Source: a phage. Taken from it: a stretch of DNA of 40,815 nt. Each line of letters opens with the position of its first letter. The stretch's first letter is position 1. Below the pieces are notes generated by a model. That model was not told the origin of the DNA and did no database searches. It was given only the letters and a program-made list of their open reading frames with translations. Positions 1 through 40,815 of the stretch are shown here, piece by piece. The translations under genes and the position numbers were made by a program. Location: sequence record NC_104876.1. One strand, given 5' to 3'.

Positions 1-261
1 ATCGAACCGGTTATGATCGCCAAGTTCCGCAAAGCGTTCGGCGAGAGTGTTTACAGCTACGCCCATATAGGACACCTGCACCACCAAAAGATTGTAGAAA
101 GCCGTAACATGATTGTTGAGCAACACCGCACTCTCGCGGCTAAAGATGCATATGCCTCCCGCGGTGGGTGGATGTCGGGCCGCAGTGCAAATGTAATTAC
201 TTATAGCGCCGAATATGGTGAGGTCGCACGTTTAACTATTTCACCGGAGATGCTTGGATGA
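1..261 (+). CDS. Metallophosphoesterase (calcineurin-like), C-terminal part; in-frame continuation of the CDS that runs off the window at 40815
   Basis: Frame is open from nt 1 (IEPVMIAKF...). GHxH motif HIGHLH at nt 64-81 completes the DxH/GDxxD/GNHDE/GH motif series found at 39946-40815. Stop at 259-261 overlaps next start (ATGA). Confidence 0.55.
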   Translation: MEPVMIAKFRKAFGESVYSYAHIGHLHHQKIVESRNMIVEQHRTLAAKDAYASRGGWMSGRSANVITYSAEYGEVARLTISPEMLG

Positions 262-743
262 AAGATATTGTGATTTTCGATTTAGACGGGACATTGGCAG
301 ATGGTACTCATCGTTTACACCTGCTGCCGAAAGATAACTACGGCGAAACCTGGGCGTGGAAACCATTTAACATGGCGTGCAAAGACGATGCACCCATTAA
401 AGATAACATCGAACTGTGTAACGCCCTTAATCGTCGCTATGCCGTTATTATCTTAACAGGCCGTAGTGATGACGCGGAAAAAGAAACCAGAATGTGGTTG
501 CAGCGCCACCGCGTCGAATTTTATCAGTTAATCATGCGCAGCAAACACGACAACAGAAAAGACATCGTAATTAAAGAAGAGGTGTTGCGTGCTATTGGGC
601 CGGAGAGAATCTTGTGTGCATTCGACGACTCTCCAGCGGTAATAAAGCATTTCCGCGAACTCGGCATAACCACTCACGCAGTTACTGAATACGACTGTAA
701 CGGGAACTCTACACACTTAAAACCACATGGGAGTGATAAATAA
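258..743 (+). CDS. HAD-superfamily phosphatase (small, cap-less; polynucleotide 3'-phosphatase or 5'-nucleotidase type)
   Basis: HAD motifs I FDLDGTL, II IILTGRS, III conserved K, IV FDDSP. GGAG RBS 9 nt upstream. Start and stop both overlap neighbouring genes. Confidence 0.65.
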   Translation: MKDIVIFDLDGTLADGTHRLHLLPKDNYGETWAWKPFNMACKDDAPIKDNIELCNALNRRYAVIILTGRSDDAEKETRMWLQRHRVEFYQLIMRSKHDNRKDIVIKEEVLRAIGPERILCAFDDSPAVIKHFRELGITTHAVTEYDCNGNSTHLKPHGSDK

Positions 744-1297
744 TGGCTAAGGTAATTATTCTTAATGGTCCTGCGGGCTGCGGGAAAGACACACTTGCTA
801 GGGCGCTGGTAGAAATGGGCTTTGCGAAGGGTGTCGCCAGTTTCAAGAATCCGATGTTCAATATTGCTATGGCTGCGTTAGGCCAGGATGCTTACCGCGA
901 GTTTCTCGACGGCTACGACGACCGGGCGCGGAAAGAAAAGCCAGAGGGTTTCCTTAACGGGTTGTCTCGGCGTCAGTTCATGATTGCCATTTCCGAGCAA
1001 TTCATTAAACCGGTATTCGGTGATGATTATTTCGGTAAGTATCTTGCCGGAAACTTGCCCGACGGCGACGAAGTTTTTGTGGTGTCTGATGGCGGGTTCG
1101 CCAGCGAAGTAGCCCCTATCGTTGCCGCGGGGCATGATGTGAGAATCGTCCGCTTGCACAGAGACGGCCATACGTTTGAAGGGGACAGCCGCGGTTACCT
1201 GTACGATATTGATGGTGTAAAAGATTATGACACCTACATCATACCGGGTTACGTTAAATCGAACGCTATAGGCATTGCTTTAAGATTAGGTTTGTAA
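743..1297 (+). CDS. P-loop nucleotide kinase, dNMP-kinase-like (phage T4 gp1-like)
   Basis: Walker A GPAGCGKDT with the GKDT signature recalled for dNMP kinases; about 184 aa; TAATG overlap with upstream HAD gene; followed by hairpin terminator. Confidence 0.6.
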   Translation: MAKVIILNGPAGCGKDTLARALVEMGFAKGVASFKNPMFNIAMAALGQDAYREFLDGYDDRARKEKPEGFLNGLSRRQFMIAISEQFIKPVFGDDYFGKYLAGNLPDGDEVFVVSDGGFASEVAPIVAAGHDVRIVRLHRDGHTFEGDSRGYLYDIDGVKDYDTYIIPGYVKSNAIGIALRLGL

Positions 1298-1302
1298 GAA
1301 AA

Positions 1303-1320
1303 AGGCCCCAAACGGGGCCT
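1303..1320. terminator. Bidirectional intrinsic terminator (AGGCCCC-AAAC-GGGGCCT) between convergent kinase and tail tube genes
   Basis: 7-bp GC stem, 4-nt loop, T-runs on both strands (TAGTTTTATG on plus; TTTTTCTT on minus). Confidence 0.6.
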
Positions 1321-1325
1321 TAGTT

Positions 1326-2498
1326 TTATGCGTATGTGATACGCTGAATAACAATAGACGACTGGTACTGGTTGCCAGTAGCCTGGCCTTCAATAGACTG
1401 AGTGATTGACTCAGGTCCTCCAATCTCAGGTGTAACCGCGGTAAGTTCTGCACGTTTCAAGCTGAAAGACATAGCCCCGTTTACTCCCGCCAGAATAGAG
1501 TTAATCTCCACCTGCTGCTCGTTGATAAACTTCTGAATCATCGCCATGTCGTACAGCTTACCGGAGATGGAGAAGGTGTTAGCTGCTCGGCTACGCTCCA
1601 CAAACGCTACGTTAGTGTTGCCGAGTTCGAACTGTGCGGACGCGCTGTTGTCGTTGGTGATGGTCAGGCTGTCGCAACGCAACGGCGTAGAACCGTCGAA
1701 CACAGAAACATCGACCGAGGAGAATGGCTCGTCACCAAACGTAACAGAGGAGAAATCAGAACCAGACGGCTGCGTGGTGAGAATCTCCTGACTGCGACCG
1801 ATGAACGGGAAGCTGCCAGTTACCATAGCGTTAACAGCCTGTTCGATGGTAAAACCAGAAACTTCCACGCCTTTGGTTAGTGTGTACGCGTCAGTCCCGC
1901 CGCACTGGCCTTTGTACCAGGTGAGAATAGAGAACGTCTTGCACTGGCTTCCCGTTTCCAGTTTATCCCCTGTCTTAGCGGCGGTAGTTACTGTCTCTGT
2001 GGTCAGGGTATGCTGGATACCCGCCCCGGTCACTACCCGCGCCTCTACTGCAGTTACGATAAACGGTTTTGCGTTGTCACCGGTTAAGCCGGTAAACGCA
2101 ATCAGGTCGCCCACTTCAACGCCGTCAGAAATAAAGCTACCTTCGGCACGGGTAAAGGTCTTGCCTGCAGGCGCGACGGTAATTGATAGCCCGGTCAGAG
2201 AACTACCGGATTGCCATGTAGAGCCTAAAGCACCCGCCAGCCAGTCGTCCTGGCTTTTCGAGCTAAGCTCAATAGCGTATTCTCCGCTAACCTGCTTGTT
2301 ACCGGTGCGGATTGACGTAGTTTCACGGCTGCCGTCCAGTTCGTTGGAGGTCAGCGTGTCGCGGGTAATGGCAGGAACGCCACCTGTGTTACGCAATGGC
2401 GACCAGACCGGGTTAGTCGGTGTTACGCCAGGGGTAGTTTCTGCCACATAGAATTGCGCAGTATTCGCGCCCTTAAAAGGAGTTGTAGCCATATTCAC
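1326..2498 (-). CDS. Major tail (tube) protein, gpV-like
   Basis: N-terminus PFKGANTAQFYVAETTPG resembles the lambda gpV start (PVKGAGTTLWVY) as recalled; 390 aa; last gene of the head-neck operon; start overlaps upstream stop. Confidence 0.5.
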   Translation of the reverse strand: MNMATTPFKGANTAQFYVAETTPGVTPTNPVWSPLRNTGGVPAITRDTLTSNELDGSRETTSIRTGNKQVSGEYAIELSSKSQDDWLAGALGSTWQSGSSLTGLSITVAPAGKTFTRAEGSFISDGVEVGDLIAFTGLTGDNAKPFIVTAVEARVVTGAGIQHTLTTETVTTAAKTGDKLETGSQCKTFSILTWYKGQCGGTDAYTLTKGVEVSGFTIEQAVNAMVTGSFPFIGRSQEILTTQPSGSDFSSVTFGDEPFSSVDVSVFDGSTPLRCDSLTITNDNSASAQFELGNTNVAFVERSRAANTFSISGKLYDMAMIQKFINEQQVEINSILAGVNGAMSFSLKRAELTAVTPEIGGPESITQSIEGQATGNQYQSSIVIQRITYA

Positions 2499-6833: not shown

Positions 6834-7152
6834 GTTTCCCCTTTCTCGATAAGTAAAGCCCCGCCTTAAAGCGGGGCGCTAGTCCTTATCATTTAAACAT
6901 AGAAACGGCGTAATCTCAGTAAACCAGTTACTTTTTACACAAGCAATAGAGTATGGCCCTTCCGAACGCGTCAGCGCAACTACACTCGGACTTAACGTCC
7001 GACTCCGTTACCTGCCGCGCCGCGGTCGCTTGTTCATACTTCACAAGCTCAGGTGGAGCTTAGCACATTTTTGGTGAAAAGTCAACTATTCGAATAGTTT
7101 ATTCCAACATTTACAATTGAGTGGAATAACTGGAATAATCACAGGCACTAAA

Positions 7153-13907: not shown

Positions 13908-13936
13908 AATATAATAGGGTCGATGGTAATAGTCAA
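13908..13936 (-). promoter_or_regulatory. Sigma70-type promoter (TTGACT-N17-TATATT) for the operon ending at the terminase genes
   Basis: On minus strand: -35 TTGACT (13931-13936), 17-nt spacer, -10 TATATT (13908-13913); first ORF ATG at 13873 with GGAG RBS. Confidence 0.5.
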
Positions 13937-13960
13937 CTAGTCATTACAGAAAATAGATAA

Positions 13961-13988
13961 AAAAAATCCCGGCTGGGTCAGGGCCGGG
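13961..13988 (-). terminator. Intrinsic terminator after the lysis cassette
   Basis: CCCGGC-loop-GCCGGG hairpin followed by T8 on the minus strand, 3' of the endolysin gene. Confidence 0.6.
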
Positions 13989-14054
13989 ATAAAACTGGAG
14001 AGCAGAGGGATGGAGCAGGAGGTGATTTAAGTATCGTCGGATTAGTCTTAGGTG

Positions 14055-14543
14055 TCAACCTTTCACCGCGCGCCCAATAGCCTCAGCCTCTTGCCACGGT
14101 TTACCGTCGAACAGCGCCAGACGACCCGCGGTACGGCGACGCAATCCGAGGAGCGGTCTGCCGTTCTGGTTGATGAACAGCGCCAGCTTGGCGCGCAGCG
14201 TTGCAATATCGCCAGAACGCAGTGCCTTGCCTGTGCCCGTAGTAGACGCAATCACGCCAGCACCTGCGTTATACACCAGGTCGCACACTGCATCAAACTG
14301 CGCCTGTGTCAGGGAGTGGTGTGCTGCTGCGTCAACCGCAGCTACAGCCTTAGCCATATCACGATTCAGTAACAGGAGGCCTTGCCCTGGCGTGATGGTC
14401 TTACCTGGTGTTACGTCTGGCCCGTAGTGACCATAACCAATAGTCAGGTACTTCTCGTTCGGCGTAGCGCGATACGCAGTTCCGCGGAATCCCTCGAACG
14501 CGGCACAGAAATGCAATCCATTATCTGAAATATTTCGAGACAC
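14055..14543 (-). CDS. Endolysin, lysozyme (GH24-like muramidase)
   Basis: N-terminal lysozyme-like signature (NISDNGLHFCAAFEGFRGTAYRATPNEKYLTIGYGH) with catalytic E in FEG; 162 aa; adjacent to membrane-protein genes. Confidence 0.65.
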   Translation of the reverse strand: MSRNISDNGLHFCAAFEGFRGTAYRATPNEKYLTIGYGHYGPDVTPGKTITPGQGLLLLNRDMAKAVAAVDAAAHHSLTQAQFDAVCDLVYNAGAGVIASTTGTGKALRSGDIATLRAKLALFINQNGRPLLGLRRRTAGRLALFDGKPWQEAEAIGRAVKG

Positions 14544-14793
14544 GCTTATGTCCTCCGTATGACAGCCACGCCTGGCGAATCTGGCGCAGCGCGACTAATG
14601 TGATTAATGTCTCAGGCAGCGTAGGCGACATGCTGCCCTGTAACAGGTGGATACATCCGGCGGCGCAGACAATAGCAGTCAGGATATAGAGCACCCGACC
14701 GAACAGCCCGTCGTCAACGCTGGGGTGATATACATTAAACAGCGATGTGCCCCCGATTGCCAGCATACCACCGAACCAGAATAACTCATTCAT
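14521..14793 (-). CDS. Small membrane protein (holin or antiholin partner)
   Basis: Start set to ATG at 14793 (MNELFWFGGMLAIGG...), which overlaps the upstream holin stop (ATGAATGA). Two or three hydrophobic helices. The longer track ORF 14521..14973 is out of frame with the holin and lacks an RBS. Confidence 0.4.
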   Translation of the reverse strand: MNELFWFGGMLAIGGTSLFNVYHPSVDDGLFGRVLYILTAIVCAAGCIHLLQGSMSPTLPETLITLVALRQIRQAWLSYGGHKRVSKYFR

Positions 14794-15094
14794 CTGTGCC
14801 TCCTCGACGTGCAATGTATTCTCCGGCGACGATGCCGGAAAGGCGTGAATAGATAGGCATCCAGAGAATAGCGATGATGAAGCCCAGGCCAGCGATTTCA
14901 CGGTCGCCCGTGATACCAAACCATTGAGCTGCGAGAGGTGCACCAAATACGGCGCAAGCGAAGCCGGTTGCAATAAAGCAGAAGCCGTCGAGGGGGCCAG
15001 AAATAGCGGACTTATGTTGTCGTAGTCCGATGACCCCTCCGGCTAGCGCGGCAGCGAGAAGCCAGCCTGTCACTGTTTCAGTAAATTTATCCAA
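14786..15094 (-). CDS. Holin (putative)
   Basis: 102 aa with three hydrophobic segments (WLLAAALAGGVIGL, FCFIATGFACAVFGAPLAAQWF, GLGFIIAILWMPIY) and a charged C-terminus; immediately upstream of the endolysin region. Confidence 0.45.
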   Translation of the reverse strand: MDKFTETVTGWLLAAALAGGVIGLRQHKSAISGPLDGFCFIATGFACAVFGAPLAAQWFGITGDREIAGLGFIIAILWMPIYSRLSGIVAGEYIARRGGTDE

Positions 15095-15284
15095 GATGAA
15101 TCCTCCAGGTGCGTATTAAGTATGCAGTAACTGGAGGATAGCACGGTTAGGAATTATCTTAATAACGGTTTATTTATGGCGCCAGATGTATTGTCGTCTC
15201 TGTGGTTTCGTCGGAATATCATCGTATCCAAGCGATTTCCAGTAATTAAATAGCCGGTTAGCGATTGCTGCGCGTTCCTGTGTT

Positions 15285-15731
15285 TTAAACTCGCCGAGAT
15301 TCAAGTCCGTCCCACTCACGCTTGCCGCATTCGCAGCAAAACCGGCTACCGGGCACGTTGTCCTTGTGGCCTTCGGCAATAAACAATCCTGGAGCGATAA
15401 TCCAATTGTGGTCACATTCCTGCGTATCTTCTTTTCGGCAACCAGATTGCTCCGAACCGTACGCACCTTTGCGGATAAGTTTGTATGCCTCCACGTCACC
15501 AGTAGCCTCGACCAATGCCAGATGCAACTCCTTAACTTGCCCTGTCAGGTGCGATATGTGCTCAGATTTCTTAATGTTGTCTTCCCGCAACTCCTTAATC
15601 TGCGCCGACGCATCACGTAACTGATTCTTAAGTGACTGCACCTCATGCGCCAGGTCTTCGCTCCGGCTGTTATTTACCTGCTGCCGTAGCTGGTCGATCA
15701 GGTACTCGAATATTTCGTTTTTAGTGTTCAT
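15285..15731 (-). CDS. Hypothetical coiled-coil protein with C-terminal Cys-rich (zinc-ribbon-like) region
   Basis: 148-aa ORF; coiled-coil N-terminus; C-x-n-C-C-x-C cluster near C-terminus; first large gene after promoter at 15879-15909. Confidence 0.35.
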   Translation of the reverse strand: MNTKNEIFEYLIDQLRQQVNNSRSEDLAHEVQSLKNQLRDASAQIKELREDNIKKSEHISHLTGQVKELHLALVEATGDVEAYKLIRKGAYGSEQSGCRKEDTQECDHNWIIAPGLFIAEGHKDNVPGSRFCCECGKREWDGLESRRV

Positions 15732-15878
15732 ATTCTTCGCTCACCCCGTTATAGACGCCGTTGTAGTCCCCGTCGCAGATGAACGGGTAGAGCATATCTT
15801 CGTACTCGTCCTGCAACTCACCTAAAGTTACTTCGCTATAATCTTTCATATTCTGTCTCCCCTCTCGTTTGTGTAAAT

Positions 15879-15909
15879 GAATAGTAGCCTATTCTATCTT
15901 AGTGTGCAA
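15879..15909 (-). promoter_or_regulatory. Promoter (TTGCAC-N17-TACTAT) with embedded operator palindrome GAATAGTAGCCTATT
   Basis: -35 at 15904-15909 and -10 at 15881-15886 on minus strand; operator 15879-15893. Near-identical to promoters at 17201-17231 and 39657-39688. Confidence 0.55.
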
Positions 15910-15916
15910 GTAAATT

Positions 15917-16090
15917 TTATTGGTGTGTTATAGAGTCGATGAACGCCAGTAACTCCCTTTCCGCTTCTGCTTCTCTTTCTTCAAGCGACCAGGTAGCGGA
16001 TTCCTCTGTTGCCGTTGCTAAATCGGTTTTTACGTCAATCATCGTGTCGATTAACGTTATTAGTCGTTCAGCCTGTTCTTTAGTAATCAT
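15917..16090 (-). CDS. Hypothetical small acidic protein
   Basis: 57-aa ORF (MITKEQAERLITLIDTMIDVK...) with AGGAG RBS 8 nt upstream; not in track (under 60 aa). Confidence 0.3.
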   Translation of the reverse strand: MITKEQAERLITLIDTMIDVKTDLATATEESATWSLEEREAEAERELLAFIDSITHQ

Positions 16091-16224
16091 TGTTGCATCT
16101 CCTGCAATAGTCGCTTCGATTGTTGCGTTTGATGAAAGTGTCGCCTTTTGACGACACTAAGTTAAAGTTGTACGCTGCTGTGTAGCAGCGTAAGTCACTC
16201 AATAAAATCCCAAACTATTGAACA

Positions 16225-16419
16225 TCACACTTCTGGCGGCTCTGGTAACGGCATCCAGTGCGACGGTTCACATACCCCCTCAACACCATTCATGTAAAAG
16301 AATTGAAATAACCCTTTACCTCTGTGGAACCCCACCATCTGCTCTTTTGTATCTGAGCAATAAACCAAAACATCTTCTTCGTTTGGCATCCGCTCACTAC
16401 ACTTAATCCACTCACCCAT
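16225..16419 (-). CDS. DUF551-like small phage protein
   Basis: C-terminal HWMPLPEPP motif recalled as characteristic of DUF551; 64 aa. Confidence 0.45.
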   Translation of the reverse strand: MGEWIKCSERMPNEEDVLVYCSDTKEQMVGFHRGKGLFQFFYMNGVEGVCEPSHWMPLPEPPEV

Positions 16420-16570
16420 ACCTCACACCTCTTTCAATCAAGGATTGCACACCAGCTTTCCACGCCCGCCACGCGAGACGCGTCTTAACGTTCAGGTACT
16501 CTTTCTTTGAACCCTTGTTAACCGGCAGACCCTCGACTACGGCCCACCGTTCAAATGCTTCTCTCATAAC

Positions 16571-16771
16571 TTAGTCCTCCAGAACTTCGCATTCACTTGC
16601 ATACACAACTACATACCCCGCGTCACATTCAATAATGAACATATCGGGACCGGCGTGTGTAACCTCAAACTCATCTCCTACTGCAACGCCCCAGTAACTA
16701 AGCGGCAAATCATCGCCATCGCGCAGGTCCACATAATCAACGTCTGTTATACGAATCCTCATTAACGGCAA
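16571..16771 (-). CDS. Hypothetical early protein
   Basis: 66-aa ORF, overlapping start/stop with neighbours. Confidence 0.35.
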   Translation of the reverse strand: MPLMRIRITDVDYVDLRDGDDLPLSYWGVAVGDEFEVTHAGPDMFIIECDAGYVVVYASECEVLED

Positions 16772-16980
16772 CCTCCCTCAGAGTCGTCGGCACCGGCATC
16801 ATGATTCGATGCCGGTTCGAGTAAAGTGACCACACCACTTTCCTTCGTCAGAAGGATGTAAACCGTCCGCAAATGTGCGTACTGTTTTAGCCAGGGACCG
16901 ATTTCGGATTTACTGTTGAATTCTTTACTGGCTATGGTTTGTTTTGTCTCTTTCGATTTAATCTCTAGCTTAATCATCAC
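16762..16980 (-). CDS. Hypothetical early protein
   Basis: 72-aa ORF in coupled chain. Confidence 0.35.
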   Translation of the reverse strand: MMIKLEIKSKETKQTIASKEFNSKSEIGPWLKQYAHLRTVYILLTKESGVVTLLEPASNHDAGADDSEGGCR

Positions 16981-17168
16981 TTCGCCCCTTTGAATTTAAA
17001 ATTGTTGCCGATGAGTTTTAAGTTATCCTCTTCTACGTATATTCGTGAATTTACCCCTCTCACCTTTTGCACGGTCACTACGTACTCACCAGGGAATACA
17101 TTAGATTTCAATTCAATTATGCCGTGTTTACCGTCGGCGCATTTAACCAACTGACCATTCTTAAACAT
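16977..17168 (-). CDS. Hypothetical early protein
   Basis: Start set to ATG 17168 (MFKNGQLVK...) with GAGGAG RBS; first gene downstream of promoter 17201-17231. Confidence 0.4.
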   Translation of the reverse strand: MFKNGQLVKCADGKHGIIELKSNVFPGEYVVTVQKVRGVNSRIYVEEDNLKLIGNNFKFKGAK

Positions 17169-17200
17169 AACCCTCACTCCTCTGTCTCGTTTCGATAAGT

Positions 17201-17231
17201 GAATAGTAACCTATTATGTTGGGGTGTGCAA
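17201..17231 (-). promoter_or_regulatory. Promoter (TTGCAC-N17-TACTAT) with embedded operator GAATAGTAACCTATTAT
   Basis: -35 at 17226-17231, -10 at 17203-17208 (minus strand); inverted repeat AATAG-N4-CTATT at 17202-17215. Confidence 0.55.
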
Positions 17232-17602
17232 GAGAATAGTTACGTTGCCGTTGTGATTCTTCAGGTAGGGTTGTGCCTTTATTCTTATTACTTGGTAACT
17301 AAAGGGCGGGCCTTAAGCCTGCCCAATAATCGTTACATTTTTACGGTTGCGAATCTACGGCACTTTAAGAAAATCAGATACTTAAGAGATATGCTGCCGA
17401 TGAGAATAGAGCTTGCCCAGGGCAATCGGAGATACTTAGGAAGGAAAGTTACGATAATTCTCATGTTCAGTAAGCCTGCTGCTTAACCCTTTGCTTAACG
17501 CACGGGTTAAGCATTCTTACAAGGTGAACAGGAATCAAAGTAACTAAGATATAGAAGCACCTTAAACGAAGATTTTCATAATGTCAATAGGTGTGATTAT
17601 GT

Positions 17603-17631
17603 TTGATTTCCCATTATTCGCAATGTATACT
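17603..17631 (+). promoter_or_regulatory. Sigma70-type promoter TTGATT-N17-TATACT for the plus-strand arm
   Basis: -35 17603-17608, -10 17626-17631; first ATG with RBS at 17664. Confidence 0.5.
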
Positions 17632-17663: not shown

Positions 17664-17834
17664 ATGACACAGAATGAGGTAGCTGAGCGTATCGGAGTTA
17701 CTCGTCGCACACTAAATAACTGGTTAAAGAGTGGGAAGTTCCCTGATTGCTGTATCCGTATTATGGGCCGCCGACAGCCAGGTACGTTTGACCGAGAGAA
17801 AGTGGAAGCGTGGATTAAGGAGAACGTGAAATGA
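17664..17834 (+). CDS. Small HTH DNA-binding protein (AlpA/excisionase-like regulator)
   Basis: MTQNEVAERIGVTRRTLNNWLKSGKFP looks like a helix-turn-helix. Start set to 17664 (GAGGG RBS) rather than track 17631, which overlaps the promoter -10. Confidence 0.5.
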   Translation: MTQNEVAERIGVTRRTLNNWLKSGKFPDCCIRIMGRRQPGTFDREKVEAWIKENVK

Positions 17835-20381: not shown

Positions 20382-20597
20382 TTAAGCCCCCTCACCTAAC
20401 GCCAGCCACTTGGCGTCTACTTGCAGCACTTCCGCCAGTTTAAACAGCGTCGCCGGGCGGACGTCCTGAGTTACACCGAGTGCAAGCTGGTTAATTGCGC
20501 CTTGGGAAACACCGGCCAGGACAGCCAGACGGCGCTGGGAGATGCCGAGTTCTTTGCGGCGTTGCTCTACACGGATACCTAGTTCAGATGGTTGCAT
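20382..20597 (-). CDS. XRE-family HTH transcriptional regulator (Cro/CI-like)
   Basis: LGISQRRLAVLAGVSQGAINQLALG is a classic XRE-type HTH; 71 aa; divergent from the operator-bearing promoter region 20627-20690. Confidence 0.65.
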   Translation of the reverse strand: MQPSELGIRVEQRRKELGISQRRLAVLAGVSQGAINQLALGVTQDVRPATLFKLAEVLQVDAKWLALGEGA

Positions 20598-20661
20598 GTC
20601 AATTACTCCTTAGTCAGTTGATATGTGAATAGTACCATATTAATTATTTTAGAAAAGCCCA

Positions 20662-20690
20662 TTGACATGTGAATAGTTCGCTATTATAGT
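20662..20690 (+). promoter_or_regulatory. Promoter TTGACA-N17-TATAGT with embedded operator GAATAGTTCGCTATTAT; second operator-like site at 20627-20643
   Basis: -35 20662-20667, -10 20685-20690; inverted repeat AATAG-N4-CTATT 20672-20685; upstream site GAATAGTACCATATTAA. Confidence 0.6.
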
Positions 20691-23392: not shown

Positions 23393-23421
23393 TTGACACC
23401 TGAATAGTTAGCTATTATAGT
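23393..23421 (+). promoter_or_regulatory. Promoter TTGACA-N17-TATAGT with embedded operator GAATAGTTAGCTATTAT
   Basis: -35 23393-23398, -10 23416-23421; inverted repeat 23403-23416. Confidence 0.6.
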
Positions 23422-26710: not shown

Positions 26711-26991
26711 CTAAAGAGGGCCGCGTACAGAAATACGCAAAAGACCGATTCGAGGCCCTTGGCGGCCTCGTTCGCAAACTCTCCTACGAGGGGCGTTCCG
26801 GCGCCCCAGACCTGCTGGTAATTCTCCCCGGCGGCATAGTCTGGTTCGTCGAGGTTAAGAAAGACGAGAACACGAAGCCAGACCCGCACCAGCTACGGGA
26901 ACATGAGCGGATGCGTAAACGTGGTGCGAATGTTTTTGTCGTTGGTTCGTTTAAACAGGTTGACGACCTAATAGCTAGCTATTATAGTTAG
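26707..26991 (+). CDS. VRR-NUC domain nuclease
   Basis: GAPDLLVILPGGIVWFVEVKK...HQLREH...RGANVFVV matches the VRR-NUC PD-(D/E)XK pattern. Start set to ATG 26707, coupled to the upstream small ORF. Confidence 0.55.
   Translation: MTKEGRVQKYAKDRFEALGGLVRKLSYEGRSGAPDLLVILPGGIVWFVEVKKDENTKPDPHQLREHERMRKRGANVFVVGSFKQVDDLIASYYS
26960..26988 (+). promoter_or_regulatory. Promoter TTGACG-N17-TATAGT with perfect 16-bp palindrome TAATAGCTAGCTATTA, located inside the 3' end of the VRR-NUC gene
   Basis: -35 26960-26965, -10 26983-26988; palindrome 26969-26984. Confidence 0.55.
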
Positions 26992-27021: not shown

Positions 27022-27213
27022 ATGAAACACGAATATGACCGCAAACCAGCACGTGACATCGTACCGGGTGACATGATTTTCAACGTTAAGACCCGCCACC
27101 CTGTTGCCGTTGATACGGTGTTCGTCGAGTCGAACGGTAAACTGGTTATCGAAGATGTAACAGGAAACGTTACGGCGTTCGGGCGTAAGGAACTGGTTCT
27201 GGTGGCGAAATGA
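27022..27213 (+). CDS. Hypothetical protein
   Basis: 63-aa ORF, ATGA overlap with next gene. Confidence 0.4.
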   Translation: MKHEYDRKPARDIVPGDMIFNVKTRHPVAVDTVFVESNGKLVIEDVTGNVTAFGRKELVLVAK

Positions 27214-28034
27214 ACTATTACAACGAATGGGATAAAGGCGCAGCCGCGTGGCTGCGTGAATTAATAAAACATGGTCACATACCTTTTGGAGTTGTAGATG
27301 AAAGAAGCATTACCGAAGTTAAGCCAGAAGACCTTGACGGGTTCACCCAGTGTCATTTTTTCGCTGGTATCGGCGGCTGGCCTCTCGCGCTCAGACTTGC
27401 GGGAGTTTCGGAGGATACGCCTCTCTGGACGGGAAGCCCGCCTTGCCAACCGTTTAGCACGGCAGGAAAACAACTCGGACAGTTCGACCAGAGACACCTC
27501 GCGCCGGTCTTCCTCGACCTCATCAGCGAGTGCCGCCCTCCAGTCATCTTTGGGGAGCAGGTTGCGGCAGCAATTGCAAAATCGTGGATGTGCGATTTAC
27601 AAGCTCACCTGGAAGGAGAAGACTACGCCGTCGGGTTTGCTGTACTCCCAGCTTGTAGCGTCGGCGCACCGCACAAAAGAGAACGACTCTTCTTTGGCGC
27701 GCACGAACTGGCCTACACCGACAGCGAACGACTTCAGAGGGAGCGGAGAGACAGTGATTCGCACGGACGGGAGAGACAGAACATTCGACAGGCTGGACTA
27801 CTCAACAGAGCAGGGATTGAAAGCGAGTCAACCAACCCGCACCACGGCTTCTGGTCAGATGCTGACTGGCTCGGATGCCGTGATGGAAAGTTCCGGCCGG
27901 TTGAACCCGGCGCATTCCCGCTGGCTAATGGGATACCCGCAAGAGTGGGACGATTGCGCGGTTACGGCAATGCCATCGTCCCGCAAGTAGCCGCCGAATT
28001 TATAAAGGCGTTTATGGGGGCCGTAAATGAGTAA
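27210..28034 (+). CDS. DNA (cytosine-5)-methyltransferase-like protein; reading frame appears interrupted (possible pseudogene or sequence error)
   Basis: Frame of 27210 carries motif [44 protein letters not shown] and [10 protein letters not shown]. Motif IX-like [17 protein letters not shown] lies in the +1 frame (27298..27990). Confidence 0.5.
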
Positions 28035-29586: not shown

Positions 29587-29590
29587 GAAA

Positions 29591-29608
29591 AGGCCCCGTT
29601 TGGGGCCT
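29591..29608. terminator. Bidirectional intrinsic terminator (AGGCCCC-GTTT-GGGGCCT) between replication arm and tailspike gene
   Basis: Same stem and flanks as the 1303-1320 terminator with inverted loop; T-runs on both strands. Confidence 0.6.
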
Positions 29609-29613
29609 TAGTT

Positions 29614-39548: not shown

Positions 39549-39656
39549 TCTTTAATCCTTTGGTTAAGAGGTTACAGGTTAACGATAAATGCGCCAGACG
39601 GGAACCACCCGCTTTTCGTGTGCGACACTAGGCGCAAAATTATTCTATCACATTAC

Positions 39657-39688
39657 TTGCACACCCCAACATAATAGGGTACTATTCA
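39657..39688 (+). promoter_or_regulatory. Promoter (TTGCAC-N17-TACTAT) with operator AATAGGGTACTATT driving the accessory cassette
   Basis: -35 39657-39662, -10 39680-39685; operator 39673-39686. Over about 35 nt it is nearly identical to the reverse complement of the 17201-17235 promoter. Confidence 0.55.
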
Positions 39689-39715: not shown

Positions 39716-39907
39716 ATGTCCAGTTTACCAGTTTCCTTAATTCTGATTGCACTGCTCGCTTATTTCGCGCCTTTCCTGGTTGCGTACTTCCGTAACCATA
39801 AAGCGAAGTTAGCGATATTCATGGCTAATCTGTTTCTTGGCTGGGCGCTGCTGCCGTGGGTCTTTATTTTAATCTGGGCGTGCAACTCGAATGTTAACGA
39901 GAAGTGA
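39716..39907 (+). CDS. Small membrane protein, Imm-like (superinfection-immunity family)
   Basis: Two hydrophobic helices with AYFAPFLVAYFRNHKAKLAIFMANLFLGWALLPWVFILIWA pattern recalled for T4 Imm-like proteins. Start at 39716 with AAGGGG RBS (track start 39701 lacks RBS). Confidence 0.45.
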   Translation: MSSLPVSLILIALLAYFAPFLVAYFRNHKAKLAIFMANLFLGWALLPWVFILIWACNSNVNEK

Positions 39908-39945
39908 GCTAGTATAGGACAAATCCTAAACACGAGGAAGTAAGT

Positions 39946-40815
39946 ATGGCCAAGAAGAAAATAACCGACGAACAGTTGCAGGAAGAATTGAACGCCGGGA
40001 TGAAGAATATCGATATAGCTCGTAAATACGGCATCTCTGACCGCGTTATCCGTATCCGTAAAGCGAAGCTGGCTAAGAAAGGCGTAGGCCACGGGCGCGA
40101 CGTTAGTCACCTTGTGCCGGACGGCTACAAGATTAAAGGAACGTCGTCGCTGGTGGACGAGTTCGGCAACACTAAGTTGCAATGGGTTAAGACAGACACC
40201 GATGCTGAACGTCAGGTCGAGTTGATGAAAGCCGTAATCGAAGGAATGAAATCAGAGATTACACCAGTCGCCCCTGTTAAAGCAGCACGCGCCAAACGCG
40301 ACGGCAAGCTACTCAATCTTTACACGGTATCTGATTTTCACCTCGGTATGCTGGCATGGGCTGACGAGAGCGGCGACGACTGGGATATGAAAATCGCGGA
40401 AGACCTGTTCTCTCGTTGGTTCGATGCCGCGTTTCAGAAAGCGCCGGATGCAGGAACAGGAGTTATTAATCTGCTCGGCGACCTTGCGCACTTCGATAGC
40501 CTGGACGCCGTTACACCGGCAAGTGGTCATGTTCTCGATGCGGACACGCGCTATCAGAAACTGGTCCGCTACATGATTCGTATGGTCCGCCGTGTCGTTG
40601 ATATGGCCCTTGTTAAGCATAAAAATGTTCGCTTGCTTATTGTGCAAGGTAACCACGACGAAAGCGGAATGATTTGGTTAGCTGAGATGTTTAGTACGCT
40701 GTACGACAATGAGCCGTGTGTGTTCGTCGATACGTCGCCGGATGTTTACAAGATGGTGCAACACGGCAAAACTACGCTGTTCTTTCACCACGGCCATAAA
40801 GCACGCTTCGATGCT
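39946..40815 (+). CDS. Metallophosphoesterase with N-terminal HTH-like region, 5' part; runs off the window end and continues in frame at nt 1
   Basis: GAGGAAG RBS; motifs SDFHLG (DxH), LLGDLAHFD (GDxxD), QGNHDE (GNHD/E), FFHHGH (GH); no stop before 40815. Confidence 0.6.
   Translation, partial: MAKKKITDEQLQEELNAGMKNIDIARKYGISDRVIRIRKAKLAKKGVGHGRDVSHLVPDGYKIKGTSSLVDEFGNTKLQWVKTDTDAERQVELMKAVIEGMKSEITPVAPVKAARAKRDGKLLNLYTVSDFHLGMLAWADESGDDWDMKIAEDLFSRWFDAAFQKAPDAGTGVINLLGDLAHFDSLDAVTPASGHVLDADTRYQKLVRYMIRMVRRVVDMALVKHKNVRLLIVQGNHDESGMIWLAEMFSTLYDNEPCVFVDTSPDVYKMVQHGKTTLFFHHGHKARFDA

What the first reader, a model, noticed from the sequence alone, without database searches (positions are those of the whole stretch)
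17201..17231. Second promoter class (TTGCAC-N17-TACTAT) carrying the same operator, used three times including in front of the accessory cassette
Near-identical segments of about 35 nt occur at 15879-15909 (minus), 17201-17231 (minus) and 39657-39688 (plus). In each the operator half-site overlaps the -10 element. These head the two early small-gene operons and the accessory cassette, so the cassette is probably expressed with the early genes under the same regulator.
Basis: seen in the sequence. Interest (0 to 1): 0.5.

Follow-up and report, generated by a model that had tools for sequence, protein, structure and literature searches.

The report
Repressible phage promoters sharing one operator
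Three near-identical host-type promoters in this virulent E. coli phage each have their -10 box built into a 14-bp palindrome, most likely the binding site of the phage's own Cro-like protein; this is a tidy but ordinary phage control circuit, and the repeated motif has already been seen in related phages.

Summary
TTGCAC-N17-TACTAT occurs exactly three times, at 15909..15881(-), 17231..17203(-) and 39657..39685(+), against 0 expected. Each copy carries the palindrome AATAG-N4-CTATT, which also sits in three TTGACA-N17-TATAGT promoters. The window is a complete, circularly permuted Kagunavirus genome (K1ind/K1G group).

In relatives found without imposing the motif, the -35 (TTGCAC, 54/55) and -10 (TACTAT, 54/55) are nearly invariant. 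The operator's central four bases always end in TA in this class (55/55) and never in the other class (0/97). Jerseyviruses keep the same layout with TTGACA/TTGACG at -35. The likeliest binder is the 71-aa HTH_3 protein at 20382..20597(-). Its best solved relative is phage 434 Cro, two operators flank its gene, and it co-occurs with the operator.

- "Early" is unproven. The 15909 unit runs without a terminator into the holin and endolysin genes.
- RNA-seq of a relative groups the immunity gene with late-peaking polymerase and methylase genes.
- The "accessory cassette" is an immunity gene followed by a conserved nucleic-acid end-repair module.

The 20-mer was already reported, mislabelled as "phage RNAP promoters". 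I rate this a new member of a known kind, of modest interest.

The parts
17203..17231 (-). Class II promoter P17231 (the finding): -35 TTGCAC 17231..17226, 17-nt spacer, -10 TACTAT 17208..17203. Predicted start near A17196; first gene ATG at 17168.
17202..17215 (.). Operator palindrome AATAGTAACCTATT; it covers the whole -10 of P17231.
15881..15909 (-). Class II promoter P15909: TTGCAC-N17-TACTAT. Predicted start near A15874; ATG at 15849.
15880..15893 (.). Operator palindrome AATAGTAGCCTATT.
39657..39685 (+). Class II promoter P39657: TTGCAC-N17-TACTAT. Predicted start near A39692; immunity gene ATG at 39716.
39673..39686 (.). Operator palindrome AATAGGGTACTATT.
20662..20690 (+). Class I promoter TTGACA-N17-TATAGT with the operator (20672-20685) in its spacer. 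It heads the rightward genes from 20721.
23393..23421 (+). Class I promoter TTGACA-N17-TATAGT, operator 23403-23416. It lies upstream of the DUF2815 and DNA polymerase genes.
26960..26988 (+). Class I promoter TTGACG-N17-TATAGT, operator 26970-26983. It lies upstream of the methylase and helicase genes.
20628..20641 (.). Second operator next to the repressor gene (AATAGTACCATATT, 1 mismatch), 44 bp from the operator at 20672. It lies at the predicted start of the leftward repressor transcript.
20382..20597 (-). 71-aa HTH_3 (Xre/Cro-type) protein, the candidate operator-binding repressor. Its best solved relative is phage 434 Cro.
20646..20673 (-). Predicted promoter of the repressor gene, TTCACA-N16-TAAAAT. 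Its -35 overlaps the operator at 20672-20685.
17664..17834 (+). 56-aa HTH_17 (excisionase/MerR-like) protein, the alternative DNA-binding candidate. It is the first gene of the rightward helicase-primase operon.
15917..17168 (-). Six small genes of unknown function downstream of P17231.
14055..15849 (-). Unit downstream of P15909: three genes of unknown function, then holin, holin and endolysin, with no intrinsic terminator in between.
13960..13992 (-). Intrinsic terminator (GC hairpin followed by T8) that ends the P15909 unit.
39716..39907 (+). Superinfection immunity protein (Pfam Imm_superinfect), first gene of the cassette.
39946..40815 (+). Metallophosphoesterase ('DNA repair exonuclease'). 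It continues at window 1-261: 870 + 261 = 1131 nt, the same length as P_12 of phage P AB-2017, so the window is a circular permutation of a whole genome.
258..1297 (+). PNKP-type HAD phosphatase (258-743) and P-loop kinase (743-1297), the last genes of the cassette.
1300..1329 (.). GC hairpin terminator that closes the cassette, facing the major tail gene.
   Evidence: D3, I5
39642..39650 (-). Divergent extended -10 promoter TGATAGAAT for the tail chaperone / tape-measure operon, back to back with P39657.

Best explanation
The three segments are sigma-70 (host RNA polymerase) promoters of a second architecture used by Kagunaviruses and Jerseyviruses. They have a -35 of TTGCAC, a 17-bp spacer and a -10 of TACTAT, with predicted starts near 17196, 15874 and 39692, followed by a conserved 24-28-nt leader with a strong RBS.

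A 14-bp inverted repeat, AATAG-N4-CTATT, is built into each promoter so that it covers positions -19 to -6, including the whole -10. A dimeric phage repressor bound there would exclude RNA polymerase. The same operator lies in the spacer of the stronger TTGACA-N17-TATAGT promoters of the replication genes, and twice next to the gene of a 71-aa 434-Cro-like HTH_3 protein (20382..20597, minus strand). I take that protein to be the binder and to be autoregulated.

One regulator would therefore control three groups of genes: the small-gene operon; the unit that ends in the lysis genes; and the counter-oriented cassette of immunity gene plus end-repair genes inserted in the tail operon.

What is shown: the sequence architecture, its conservation, the co-occurrence of operator and HTH_3 gene, and the need for a cassette promoter. 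What is inferred: promoter activity, the sign of regulation, the identity of the binder, and the timing.
For: - Exact triplication with 0 expected by chance.
- Conservation: in 37 Kagunavirus loci retrieved by homology to the HTH_3 protein, not by the motif, class II sites (55 unique contexts) have TTGCAC in 54/55 and TACTAT in 54/55.
- -10 constraint: the operator's central four bases end in TA in 55/55 class II sites and in 0/97 class I sites. This is as expected if those two bases are the -12/-11 positions of a working -10.
- Other genus: Jerseyvirus small-gene promoters keep the same layout with a near-consensus -35 (TTGACA or TTGACG-N18-TACTAT/CACTAT). SETP3 also has one with TTGCAG at -35.
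- Independent scan: an IMG/VR scan that did not impose the -35 found 92 unique instances, of which 89 had a TTGC-type -35 (mostly TTGCAC) and 3 appear to be chance hits without it. The surrounding genes vary.
- Footprint: at the focal site the block from about -45 to +35 is better conserved than the flanking coding sequence.
- No read-through: nothing on the + strand lies upstream of 39657 for 10 kb, and the replication operon ends at the terminator 29590-29609.
- Binder:
  - HTH_3 scores 48 bits in Pfam.
  - The best PDB match is 434 Cro, also 71 aa, over almost the full length (E = 1.8e-6).
  - Two operators lie 44 bp apart between the gene and a divergent class I promoter.
  - All 47 Kagunavirus and Jerseyvirus loci that encode this protein have 2-6 exact operators. 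All 33 loci with more distant HTH_3 relatives have none.
  - One 20-kb locus (L077) keeps 6 operators and an identical HTH_3 protein but lacks the HTH_17 gene.
- Expression: RNA-seq of Kagunavirus K1B4 shows the immunity gene is expressed and clusters with polymerase and methylases. In that genome all of these sit behind operator-bearing promoters.
Against: - TTGCAC and TACTAT match the consensus at only 7 of 12 positions, and the generic scan did not list these sites.
- A better -10-like hexamer (TAGAAT, CATAAT or TATAAT) 10 bp upstream is just as conserved. At 39647-39675 it pairs with ATCACA for a 9/12 match.
- The recognition helices of the Kagunavirus and Jerseyvirus HTH_3 proteins differ (SQGAINQ against SQSLITH, 49% identity overall), yet the core operator is the same. 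The Cornellvirus helix (TQSAISH) resembles the Jerseyvirus one, but that genome lacks the operator.
- HTH_17 is better conserved between genera (80-97%) and, like the operator, is missing from Cornellvirus SP-031.
- Simple early shut-off fits poorly with lysis genes lying behind a class II promoter.
- No transcript 5' ends and no binding data exist.
Confidence: 0.55

Rival explanations
1. The working -10 is the upstream hexamer (C/T)A(T/G)AAT, at positions 14-19 after the start of TTGCAC. This could be instead of TACTAT, or the two could act as tandem promoters 10 bp apart. TTGCAC would then not be the -35 of that promoter. The operator would sit over the start site rather than over the -10.
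For: The hexamer is TAGAAT, CATAAT or TATAAT in 53 of 55 unique class II contexts and always keeps A2 and T6. At the cassette site the generic scan scores ATCACA-N17-CATAAT (39647-39675) at 9/12, higher than TTGCAC-N17-TACTAT.
Against: No conserved -35 or TG motif lies 17 bp upstream of it at the other two sites (AACTAT, TAAAAT). TTGCAC is invariant and exactly 17 bp from TACTAT. Jerseyviruses put TTGACA/TTGACG 18 bp from TACTAT and only 8 bp from CATAAT. The NNTA constraint on the operator centre is explained only if TACTAT is used. The hexamer may be conserved simply as the outer flank of the operator's left arm.
Confidence: 0.15
2. The palindrome is bound by something other than the Cro-like protein: the HTH_17 (excisionase/MerR-like) protein at 17664..17834, or another phage or host factor. 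It might act as an activator or timer rather than a repressor.
For: HTH_17 is the first gene of an operon whose promoter (17603-17631) has no operator. It is 80-97% identical between the two genera that share the operator and is absent from Cornellvirus SP-031, which lacks the operator. An HTH gene is one of only four 'early' genes in K1B4 RNA-seq.
Against: L077 keeps six operators without an HTH_17 gene. Spacers are 17 bp, not the 19-20 bp typical of MerR-type activation (established knowledge), and the class I hexamers are near consensus and need no activator. A 14-bp inverted repeat matches the site size of a 434-Cro-type dimer (plus established knowledge). HTH_17 has no solved relative by sequence.
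Confidence: 0.2
3. The repeats are promoters for a phage-encoded RNA polymerase, as labelled from PHIRE output for the related phage fBC-Eco01 (consensus tgAATAGTa-ccTATTat-T).
For: Seven copies of the same 20-mer are listed as 'phage RNAP promoters' in PMC9825357, Table S2.
Against: No RNA polymerase gene is present. Every ORF over 400 aa in the window corresponds to an annotated non-RNAP gene in relatives that are 93-99% identical. The motif is a palindrome embedded in standard -35/-10 frames in three different registers. PHIRE only reports repeated words.
Confidence: 0.02
4. The conserved promoter-leader blocks are kept mainly as short homology 'linkers' at which genes are swapped by recombination. 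Regulation would be secondary.
For: About 14-15 unrelated first genes (19 distinct 10-aa N-termini, some of them variants of one gene) and about 15 different upstream flanks adjoin the same block of the 15.9k type. Extra copies accompany inserted, counter-oriented genes in the structural region of K1B4 (6747, 8902) and RP180 (6041).
Against: This does not exclude promoter function. The -35, the -10 and the NNTA constraint are specifically promoter-like, and every block is followed by an RBS and a start codon.
Confidence: 0.08

Closest known systems
Phage 434 Cro / cI with the 14-bp OR and OL operators (also lambda and P22 PR/PL)
   Same: A small HTH_3 protein of 71 aa. 14-bp inverted-repeat sites overlap the -10/-35 of sigma-70 promoters. 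Two sites lie between the regulator gene and a divergent promoter. The same operator is used at several promoters.
   Different: The host phage is virulent, with no cI, integrase or immunity region. There are seven to nine sites scattered round the genome rather than two clusters of three. The half-site is AATAG, not ACAA. The operator occurs in three registers relative to the -35 (4, 7 and 10 nt) and in both orientations. Binding has not been tested.
PHIRE-predicted 'phage promoters' of Kagunavirus fBC-Eco01 (PMC9825357) and VB_EcoS-Golestan (PMC7203180)
   Same: For fBC-Eco01 it is the same 20-mer, tgAATAGTa-ccTATTat-T, seven per genome, including the homologues of all three sites of this finding. 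Golestan also has seven PHIRE promoters, but I did not read their sequences.
   Different: fBC-Eco01 attributes them to a phage RNA polymerase, which these phages lack. There is no mention of the palindrome, of an operator, of two promoter architectures or of a cognate regulator.
BPROM / consensus promoters annotated in Salmonella phages SETP3 (NC_009232) and Jersey (NC_021777)
   Same: Promoters are annotated at homologous positions: upstream of the immunity gene in SETP3 (15243-15271, TTGCAT-N17-TATTAT), and upstream of the small-gene/lysis unit in Jersey (39893-39920).
   Different: The Jerseyvirus immunity promoter has the operator 7 nt after the -35, so only the right arm overlaps the -10. 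The Jersey annotators chose a different -10 (TGTACT). No operator is annotated.
Morons and counter-oriented accessory cassettes in late operons of siphoviruses; promoter-associated repeats that flank shuffled early genes in T4-like phages (recalled from memory, not checked here)
   Same: A self-contained unit with its own promoter and terminator lies opposite to the tail operon. Its first gene is variable. A conserved promoter-leader block sits at mosaic junctions.
   Different: Here the cassette promoter carries the phage's general operator, so the cassette is wired into the phage's own circuit and is not expressed independently. Three of its four genes are conserved.

Membership tests
Sigma-70 (housekeeping) bacterial promoter | -35 and -10 hexamers resembling TTGACA/TATAAT, separated by 16-18 bp, with A at -11 and T at -7 | tested here: inconclusive
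   TTGCAC (TTG kept, 3/6), a 17-bp spacer, and TACTAT (4/6, with A2 and T6 present): 7/12 in total. This is below the generic scan's threshold, so the sites are not listed. Class I sites score 10-11/12.
Sigma-70 (housekeeping) bacterial promoter | Hexamers conserved among relatives while neighbouring sequence varies | tested here: met
   TTGCAC 54/55 and TACTAT 54/55 in loci anchored on a protein rather than on the motif. Jerseyvirus uses TTGACA/TTGACG at the same distance. Flanking genes vary.
Sigma-70 (housekeeping) bacterial promoter | Transcription start about 7 nt downstream of the -10 | not testable with these tools
   No 5'-end data exist. The K1B4 RNA-seq paper gives gene-level classes only.
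434-Cro / Xre-type HTH_3 repressor with its operators | Regulator has the HTH_3 (Cro/C1-type) domain | tested here: met
   PF01381 at 48.1 bits against a cut-off of 23. Best PDB match is 434 Cro, residues 6-68 to 4-64, E = 1.8e-6.
434-Cro / Xre-type HTH_3 repressor with its operators | Operators are inverted repeats of about 14-17 bp overlapping promoter elements | tested here: met
   AATAG-N4-CTATT (14 bp), 9 sites against 0.88 expected. Seven of the nine lie within or across a -35/-10 frame, one is a single arm at a -35, and one lies at the predicted start of the repressor transcript.
434-Cro / Xre-type HTH_3 repressor with its operators | Operators adjacent to the regulator's own gene (autoregulation) | tested here: met
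   Sites at 20628-20641 and 20672-20685 lie between the gene (it ends at 20597) and the divergent promoter. The gene's predicted promoter, 20673..20646, overlaps them.
434-Cro / Xre-type HTH_3 repressor with its operators | Regulator and operator co-occur and co-vary across genomes | tested here: inconclusive
   Co-occurrence is perfect: 47/47 Kagunavirus and Jerseyvirus loci have operators and 0/33 others do. However, the recognition helices differ between the two genera that share the operator, and the Cornellvirus helix resembles the Jerseyvirus one without the operator.
434-Cro / Xre-type HTH_3 repressor with its operators | Protein binds the site and represses | not testable with these tools
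   Needs EMSA or footprinting and reporter assays.
Phage-RNA-polymerase promoter (label used in PMC9825357) | Phage encodes its own RNA polymerase | tested here: not met
   There is no RNAP among the window's ORFs or in the annotations of P AB-2017, K1G, Jersey, SETP3 and RP180.
MerR-type activated promoter (considered because of the HTH_17/MerR-like protein) | Over-long 19-20-bp spacer with the palindrome centred in it | tested here: not met
   Spacers are 17 bp in both classes. In class II the palindrome covers the -10 and is not centred in the spacer.
Moron-like accessory cassette | Own promoter and terminator, orientation opposite to the surrounding late operon, variable content | tested here: met
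   P39657 and the terminator at 1300-1329 bracket four + strand genes between the minus-strand major tail gene and tail chaperone gene. The first gene is replaced by a different small gene (MTGITMFF...) in some relatives, and the Jerseyvirus and Cornellvirus cassettes differ in content.
Superinfection immunity protein (Pfam Imm_superinfect) | Match to PF14373 above the gathering score | tested here: met
   49.7 bits against 27.9 for 39716-39907.

The most novel reading that the evidence does not exclude
One asymmetric 20-bp unit, TATAATAG-N4-CTATTCAC, may be used in both orientations to build two promoter classes. In one orientation its flank supplies the -10 (TATAGT). In the other, its centre plus right arm supplies the -10 (TACTAT). 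A single Cro-like protein of a strictly virulent phage would then govern replication genes, small host-takeover genes, lysis genes and counter-oriented accessory cassettes. The same promoter-operator-leader block would also act as a portable linker at which accessory genes are swapped, and with which new cassettes are inserted into the structural operon. At 39673-39686 the bound protein might also influence the back-to-back tail-operon promoter, since its centre lies about 44.5 bp upstream of that start.
Probability: 0.25. Interest if true: 0.5.

Novelty: new member of a known kind. Interest (0 to 1): 0.3.

Why it matters
Kagunaviruses and Jerseyviruses are among the phages most often proposed for therapy against E. 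coli K1, uropathogenic E. coli (UPEC) and Salmonella, yet their transcription programme is essentially undescribed.

If this reading is right, one small Cro-like protein and one 14-bp site account for most promoters in the genome. It also corrects the published label 'phage RNAP promoters'. It explains how the immunity and repair cassette inside the tail operon is expressed. And it supplies compact, repressible promoter parts and defined insertion points for engineering these phages.

It is not a new principle. Operators overlapping sigma-70 promoters and Cro-type regulators are textbook material.

Tried and rejected
- Rfam at gathering thresholds over the whole window found nothing.
- A literature search for MB78, an old Jersey-like phage, found no promoter papers in the library. 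Searches for 'Guernseyvirinae' with 'repressor' or 'transcription' found only annotation-level mentions ('transcriptional repressor DicA') and the K1B4 RNA-seq paper.
- The K1B4 supplements hold host tables only. There is no per-gene phage expression table, so the temporal class of the small genes could not be read.
- I tried to decide between the two HTH proteins by co-variation of the recognition helix. The result was ambiguous.
- Enumerating palindromes in more distant HTH_3-bearing loci gave no clear alternative operators. In Cornellvirus SP-031 a different AT-rich repeat, TATTA-N6-TAATA, is enriched at homologous promoters (9 against 1.19 expected). It is partly direct rather than inverted and could reflect -10-like composition, so I did not build on it.
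- I rejected reading the class II elements on the opposite strand as class I promoters. The opposite strand has no usable -35 (TCGATA, TGTGTA, GGTGTA). At 15.9 kb it has no -10 with A2/T6. And no genes lie in that direction.
- I rejected a sigma-54 reading of TTGCAC because there is no GG element 10-11 nt upstream.
- I did not run structure prediction. The sequence match to 434 Cro made it unnecessary.

Full report
**What the window is.** The window matches Escherichia phages of the genus Kagunavirus (Guernseyvirinae) at 93-99% identity: K1ind1/2/3, K1G and P AB-2017. The metallophosphoesterase gene starts at 39946, runs off the end of the window and resumes at base 1. Its two pieces, 870 + 261 nt, sum to the 1131 nt of its homologue in P AB-2017. 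The window is therefore a complete genome opened inside that gene.

**Checking the observation.** TTGCAC-N17-TACTAT occurs with no mismatch at 15881-15909(-), 17203-17231(-) and 39657-39685(+). It never occurred in 100 shuffles. The copies are alike well beyond the hexamers: 37 nt at 97% and 47 nt at 81%. Each contains the inverted repeat AATAG-N4-CTATT, which has nine sites at <=1 mismatch in the window against 0.88 expected. TTGACA/TTGACG-N17-TATAGT at 20662, 23393 and 26960 (+) carries the same palindrome inside the spacer, and a further copy lies at 20628. The only correction is that the complete -10 hexamer, not just a half-site's worth, lies inside the palindrome.

**Anatomy.**
- In class II the palindrome starts 10 nt after the -35 hexamer and spans about -19 to -6.
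- In class I it starts 4 nt after the -35 and ends on the first base of the -10.
- In the Jerseyvirus immunity-gene promoter (TTGCAT-N17-TATTAT) it starts 7 nt after the -35.
- The conserved unit is really an asymmetric 20-mer, TATAATAG-N4-CTATTCAC. It is read in one orientation in class II and in the other in class I.
- Downstream of each class II -10 lies a conserved leader. At the two minus-strand sites, as at the class I promoter at 20662, it carries ...AAACGAGAGGAG (I15). At 39657 the leader differs (CACCAACAATGAAGGGG). An ATG follows 24-28 nt from the predicted start.

**Evidence that these are real promoters.** No transcript ends are available, so the evidence is comparative.
- An IMG/VR scan for the operator plus downstream flank, with nothing imposed at the -35, returned 92 unique instances. 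In 89 of them a TTGC-type -35 (mostly TTGCAC) appeared exactly 10 nt upstream, and 3 were apparent chance hits without it.
- A second set was retrieved through homology to the HTH_3 protein, independently of the motif. It gave 55 unique class II contexts, with TTGCAC in 54 and TACTAT in 54.
- The most telling detail concerns the four central bases of the palindrome. They are free in class I: none of 97 ends in TA. In class II they always end in TA (55/55). Those two bases are the -12/-11 positions of TACTAT.
- Jerseyvirus small-gene promoters keep the layout with a near-consensus -35: TTGACA or TTGACG, N18, TACTAT or CACTAT. SETP3 also has one with TTGCAG at -35.
- At the focal site the block from about -45 to +35 is better conserved than the coding sequence on either side.
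- The cassette at 39716 has no + strand gene for 10 kb upstream, and the replication operon ends in a terminator at 29590-29609. Read-through is therefore not a credible source of its transcript.

**A caveat on the -10.** By consensus the class II promoter is mediocre (7/12), and the generic scan does not list it. A second hexamer 10 bp upstream (TAGAAT, CATAAT or TATAAT) is equally conserved. At the cassette site it pairs with ATCACA for a 9/12 match. It has no -35 partner at the other two sites and lies only 7-8 bp from the conserved TTG hexamer. I therefore treat it as the outer flank of the operator or as a minor alternative start. Only 5'-end mapping can settle this.

**Which protein binds the palindrome.** Two small DNA-binding proteins are encoded nearby.
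- The 71-aa protein at 20382..20597(-) has an HTH_3 domain (48 bits). Its best solved relative is phage 434 Cro, also 71 aa, aligned over almost its whole length. From established knowledge, 434 Cro binds 14-bp inverted repeats as a dimer.
- Two operators lie 44 bp apart between this gene and the divergent class I promoter. The gene's own predicted promoter overlaps them.
- Of 80 IMG/VR loci encoding relatives of this protein, all 47 Kagunavirus and Jerseyvirus loci have 2-6 exact operators. The 33 others have none.
- The other candidate is a 56-aa HTH_17 protein at 17664..17834. It is absent from one 20-kb locus (L077) that still has six operators and an identical HTH_3 protein.
- Against the HTH_3 assignment: the recognition helices of the Kagunavirus and Jerseyvirus proteins differ although the core operator is shared. 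Cornellvirus SP-031 lacks both the operator and HTH_17, but has an HTH_3 protein whose helix resembles the Jerseyvirus one.
- I therefore hold the HTH_3 assignment at about 0.6.

**What the promoters drive.**
- P17231 heads six small genes of unknown function, 17168..15917.
- P15909 follows directly, with no terminator before it. It heads three more unknown genes and then, again without a terminator, holin, holin and endolysin. The unit ends at the hairpin-T8 terminator near 13992-13960.
- P39657 heads four genes:
  - an Imm_superinfect protein;
  - a metallophosphoesterase with an N-terminal HTH;
  - a PNKP-type phosphatase;
  - a P-loop kinase.

  This unit closes at the terminator 1300-1329. 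It is inserted opposite to the tail operon, between the major tail gene and the tail chaperone gene.
- The calls 'early' and 'accessory' are thus only partly right.

**The one transcriptome available.** It comes from Kagunavirus vB_Eco_K1B4 and has 8 time points up to 120 min, with phage reads at no more than 8.9% of the total. It classes the immunity gene as late-peaking together with DNA polymerase and two methylases. An HTH gene is one of four early genes (PMC12645636). I confirmed that the K1B4 genome has class I or class II promoters directly upstream of exactly those genes. This supports co-regulation and shows the cassette is not silent. It does not support an 'early' label. The design is too coarse to say more.

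**Mechanism proposed.** Host RNA polymerase with sigma-70 initiates at all these promoters from the start of infection. The Cro-like protein is made from its own operator-flanked promoter. As it accumulates it occupies the palindromes, occluding the -10 in class II and the spacer/-10 junction in class I, and limits its own synthesis. Perfect palindromes should fill first. The imperfect site over the -35 of the promoter at 13936..13908, upstream of the small genes, terminase and structural genes, might fill last and so provide a crude temporal order. These steps are inferred. Nothing here shows binding, the sign of regulation or the timing.

**Comparison with what is known.**
- The circuit works like the Cro/operator systems of 434, lambda and P22. 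By sequence the protein belongs to that HTH_3 family.
- It differs in four ways:
  - it sits in a virulent phage;
  - its sites are scattered round the genome;
  - the operator is placed in three registers and two orientations;
  - it reaches a counter-oriented cassette.
- The repeated 20-mer was already reported for fBC-Eco01 as seven 'phage RNAP promoters' (PMC9825357). These phages encode no RNA polymerase, so that label fails. Seven PHIRE promoters are also reported for Golestan (PMC7203180), but I did not read their sequences.
- BPROM or consensus promoters are annotated at homologous positions in SETP3 and Jersey.
- I found no paper that describes the palindrome as an operator, the two architectures, or a cognate regulator.

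**Verdict.** This is a new member of a known kind and of modest interest (0.3). The more interesting reading is also the less certain one. Blocks of the 15.9-kb type adjoin about 14-15 unrelated first genes. Extra copies accompany inserted, counter-oriented genes in the structural region of K1B4 and RP180. The promoter-operator-leader block may therefore act as a portable cassette and recombination linker.

Noticed in passing
window 39642-39650 (-): There is an extended -10 promoter, TGATAGAAT, for the tail chaperone / tape-measure operon, back to back with P39657. In about 20 related sequences TG and TAGAAT are invariant while the base between them takes all four values. The class II operator is centred about 44.5 bp upstream of its predicted start.
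   Followed up: partly
window 13908-13941 (-): The promoter TTGACT-N17-TATATT sits after the endolysin terminator. Its -35 lies in the middle of an imperfect copy of the palindrome (ACTAG-TTGA-CTATT). The site is conserved at the same place in Kagunavirus and Jerseyvirus, and appears as TAATAGTTGCATAATA in Cornellvirus SP-031 (L007 17748).
   Followed up: partly
window 7061-7090 (-): The promoter TTGACT-N17-TAAGCT, upstream of the spanin, scaffold and capsid genes, has a single operator arm abutting the -35 (AATAGTTGACT). It is conserved in Kagunaviruses and is listed as host promoter HP1 in fBC-Eco01.
   Followed up: no
window 15098-15140 (-): A hairpin pairs CCUCCAG with CUGGAGG and sequesters the Shine-Dalgarno sequence of the first holin gene, which has a TTG start at 15094. 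Free energy is -17.4 kcal/mol, z = -3.5, and 0 of 200 shuffles fold as well. It may delay lysis at the level of translation.
   Followed up: partly
window 13960-14058 (-): A good promoter match (TTGACA-N17-GATACT, 14058..14030) lies at the end of the endolysin gene, only about 60 nt before the terminator. It could give a short non-coding transcript.
   Followed up: no
window 17232-17630: This stretch of about 400 bp has no convincing gene and lies between the divergent small-gene operon and helicase-primase operon. It contains a GC hairpin (about 17295-17320) and the operator-less promoter TTGATT-N17-TATACT (17603-17631). It could hold an origin or a non-coding RNA. Rfam found nothing.
   Followed up: no
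L007 (Salmonella phage FSL SP-031, Cornellvirus): This genome has no AATAG-N4-CTATT sites and no HTH_17 gene. A different AT-rich repeat, TATTA-N6-TAATA, is enriched (9 against 1.19 expected) at promoters homologous to those of the window, for example 14681, 17748 and 33280.
   Followed up: partly
L077 12559-13144 (IMGVR_UViG_3300045988_014597): In this Kagunavirus the HTH_17 gene and the 77-aa gene upstream of helicase-primase are replaced by a 149-aa gene and a 47-aa Cys-rich gene. The operators and the Cro-like gene are unchanged.
   Followed up: partly
L155 6747 and 8902 (K1B4); L005 6041 (RP180): Extra class II promoter-leader blocks occur inside the structural-gene region and point against the late operon. 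They apparently drive inserted genes. In RP180 the RefSeq gene at this place (gp06) is annotated on the opposite strand.
   Followed up: no
window 27210-28034 and 27298-27990 (+): Two long ORFs overlap in different frames in the methyltransferase region. Both are annotated as DNA methyltransferases in K1G (ORF30 and ORF31).
   Followed up: no
window 39946-40090 (+): The metallophosphoesterase has an N-terminal extension with a weak HTH (GerE-like) match. A 25-nt stretch of it (40049-40073) repeats a stretch of the immunity gene (39789-39813) at 84% identity.
   Followed up: no
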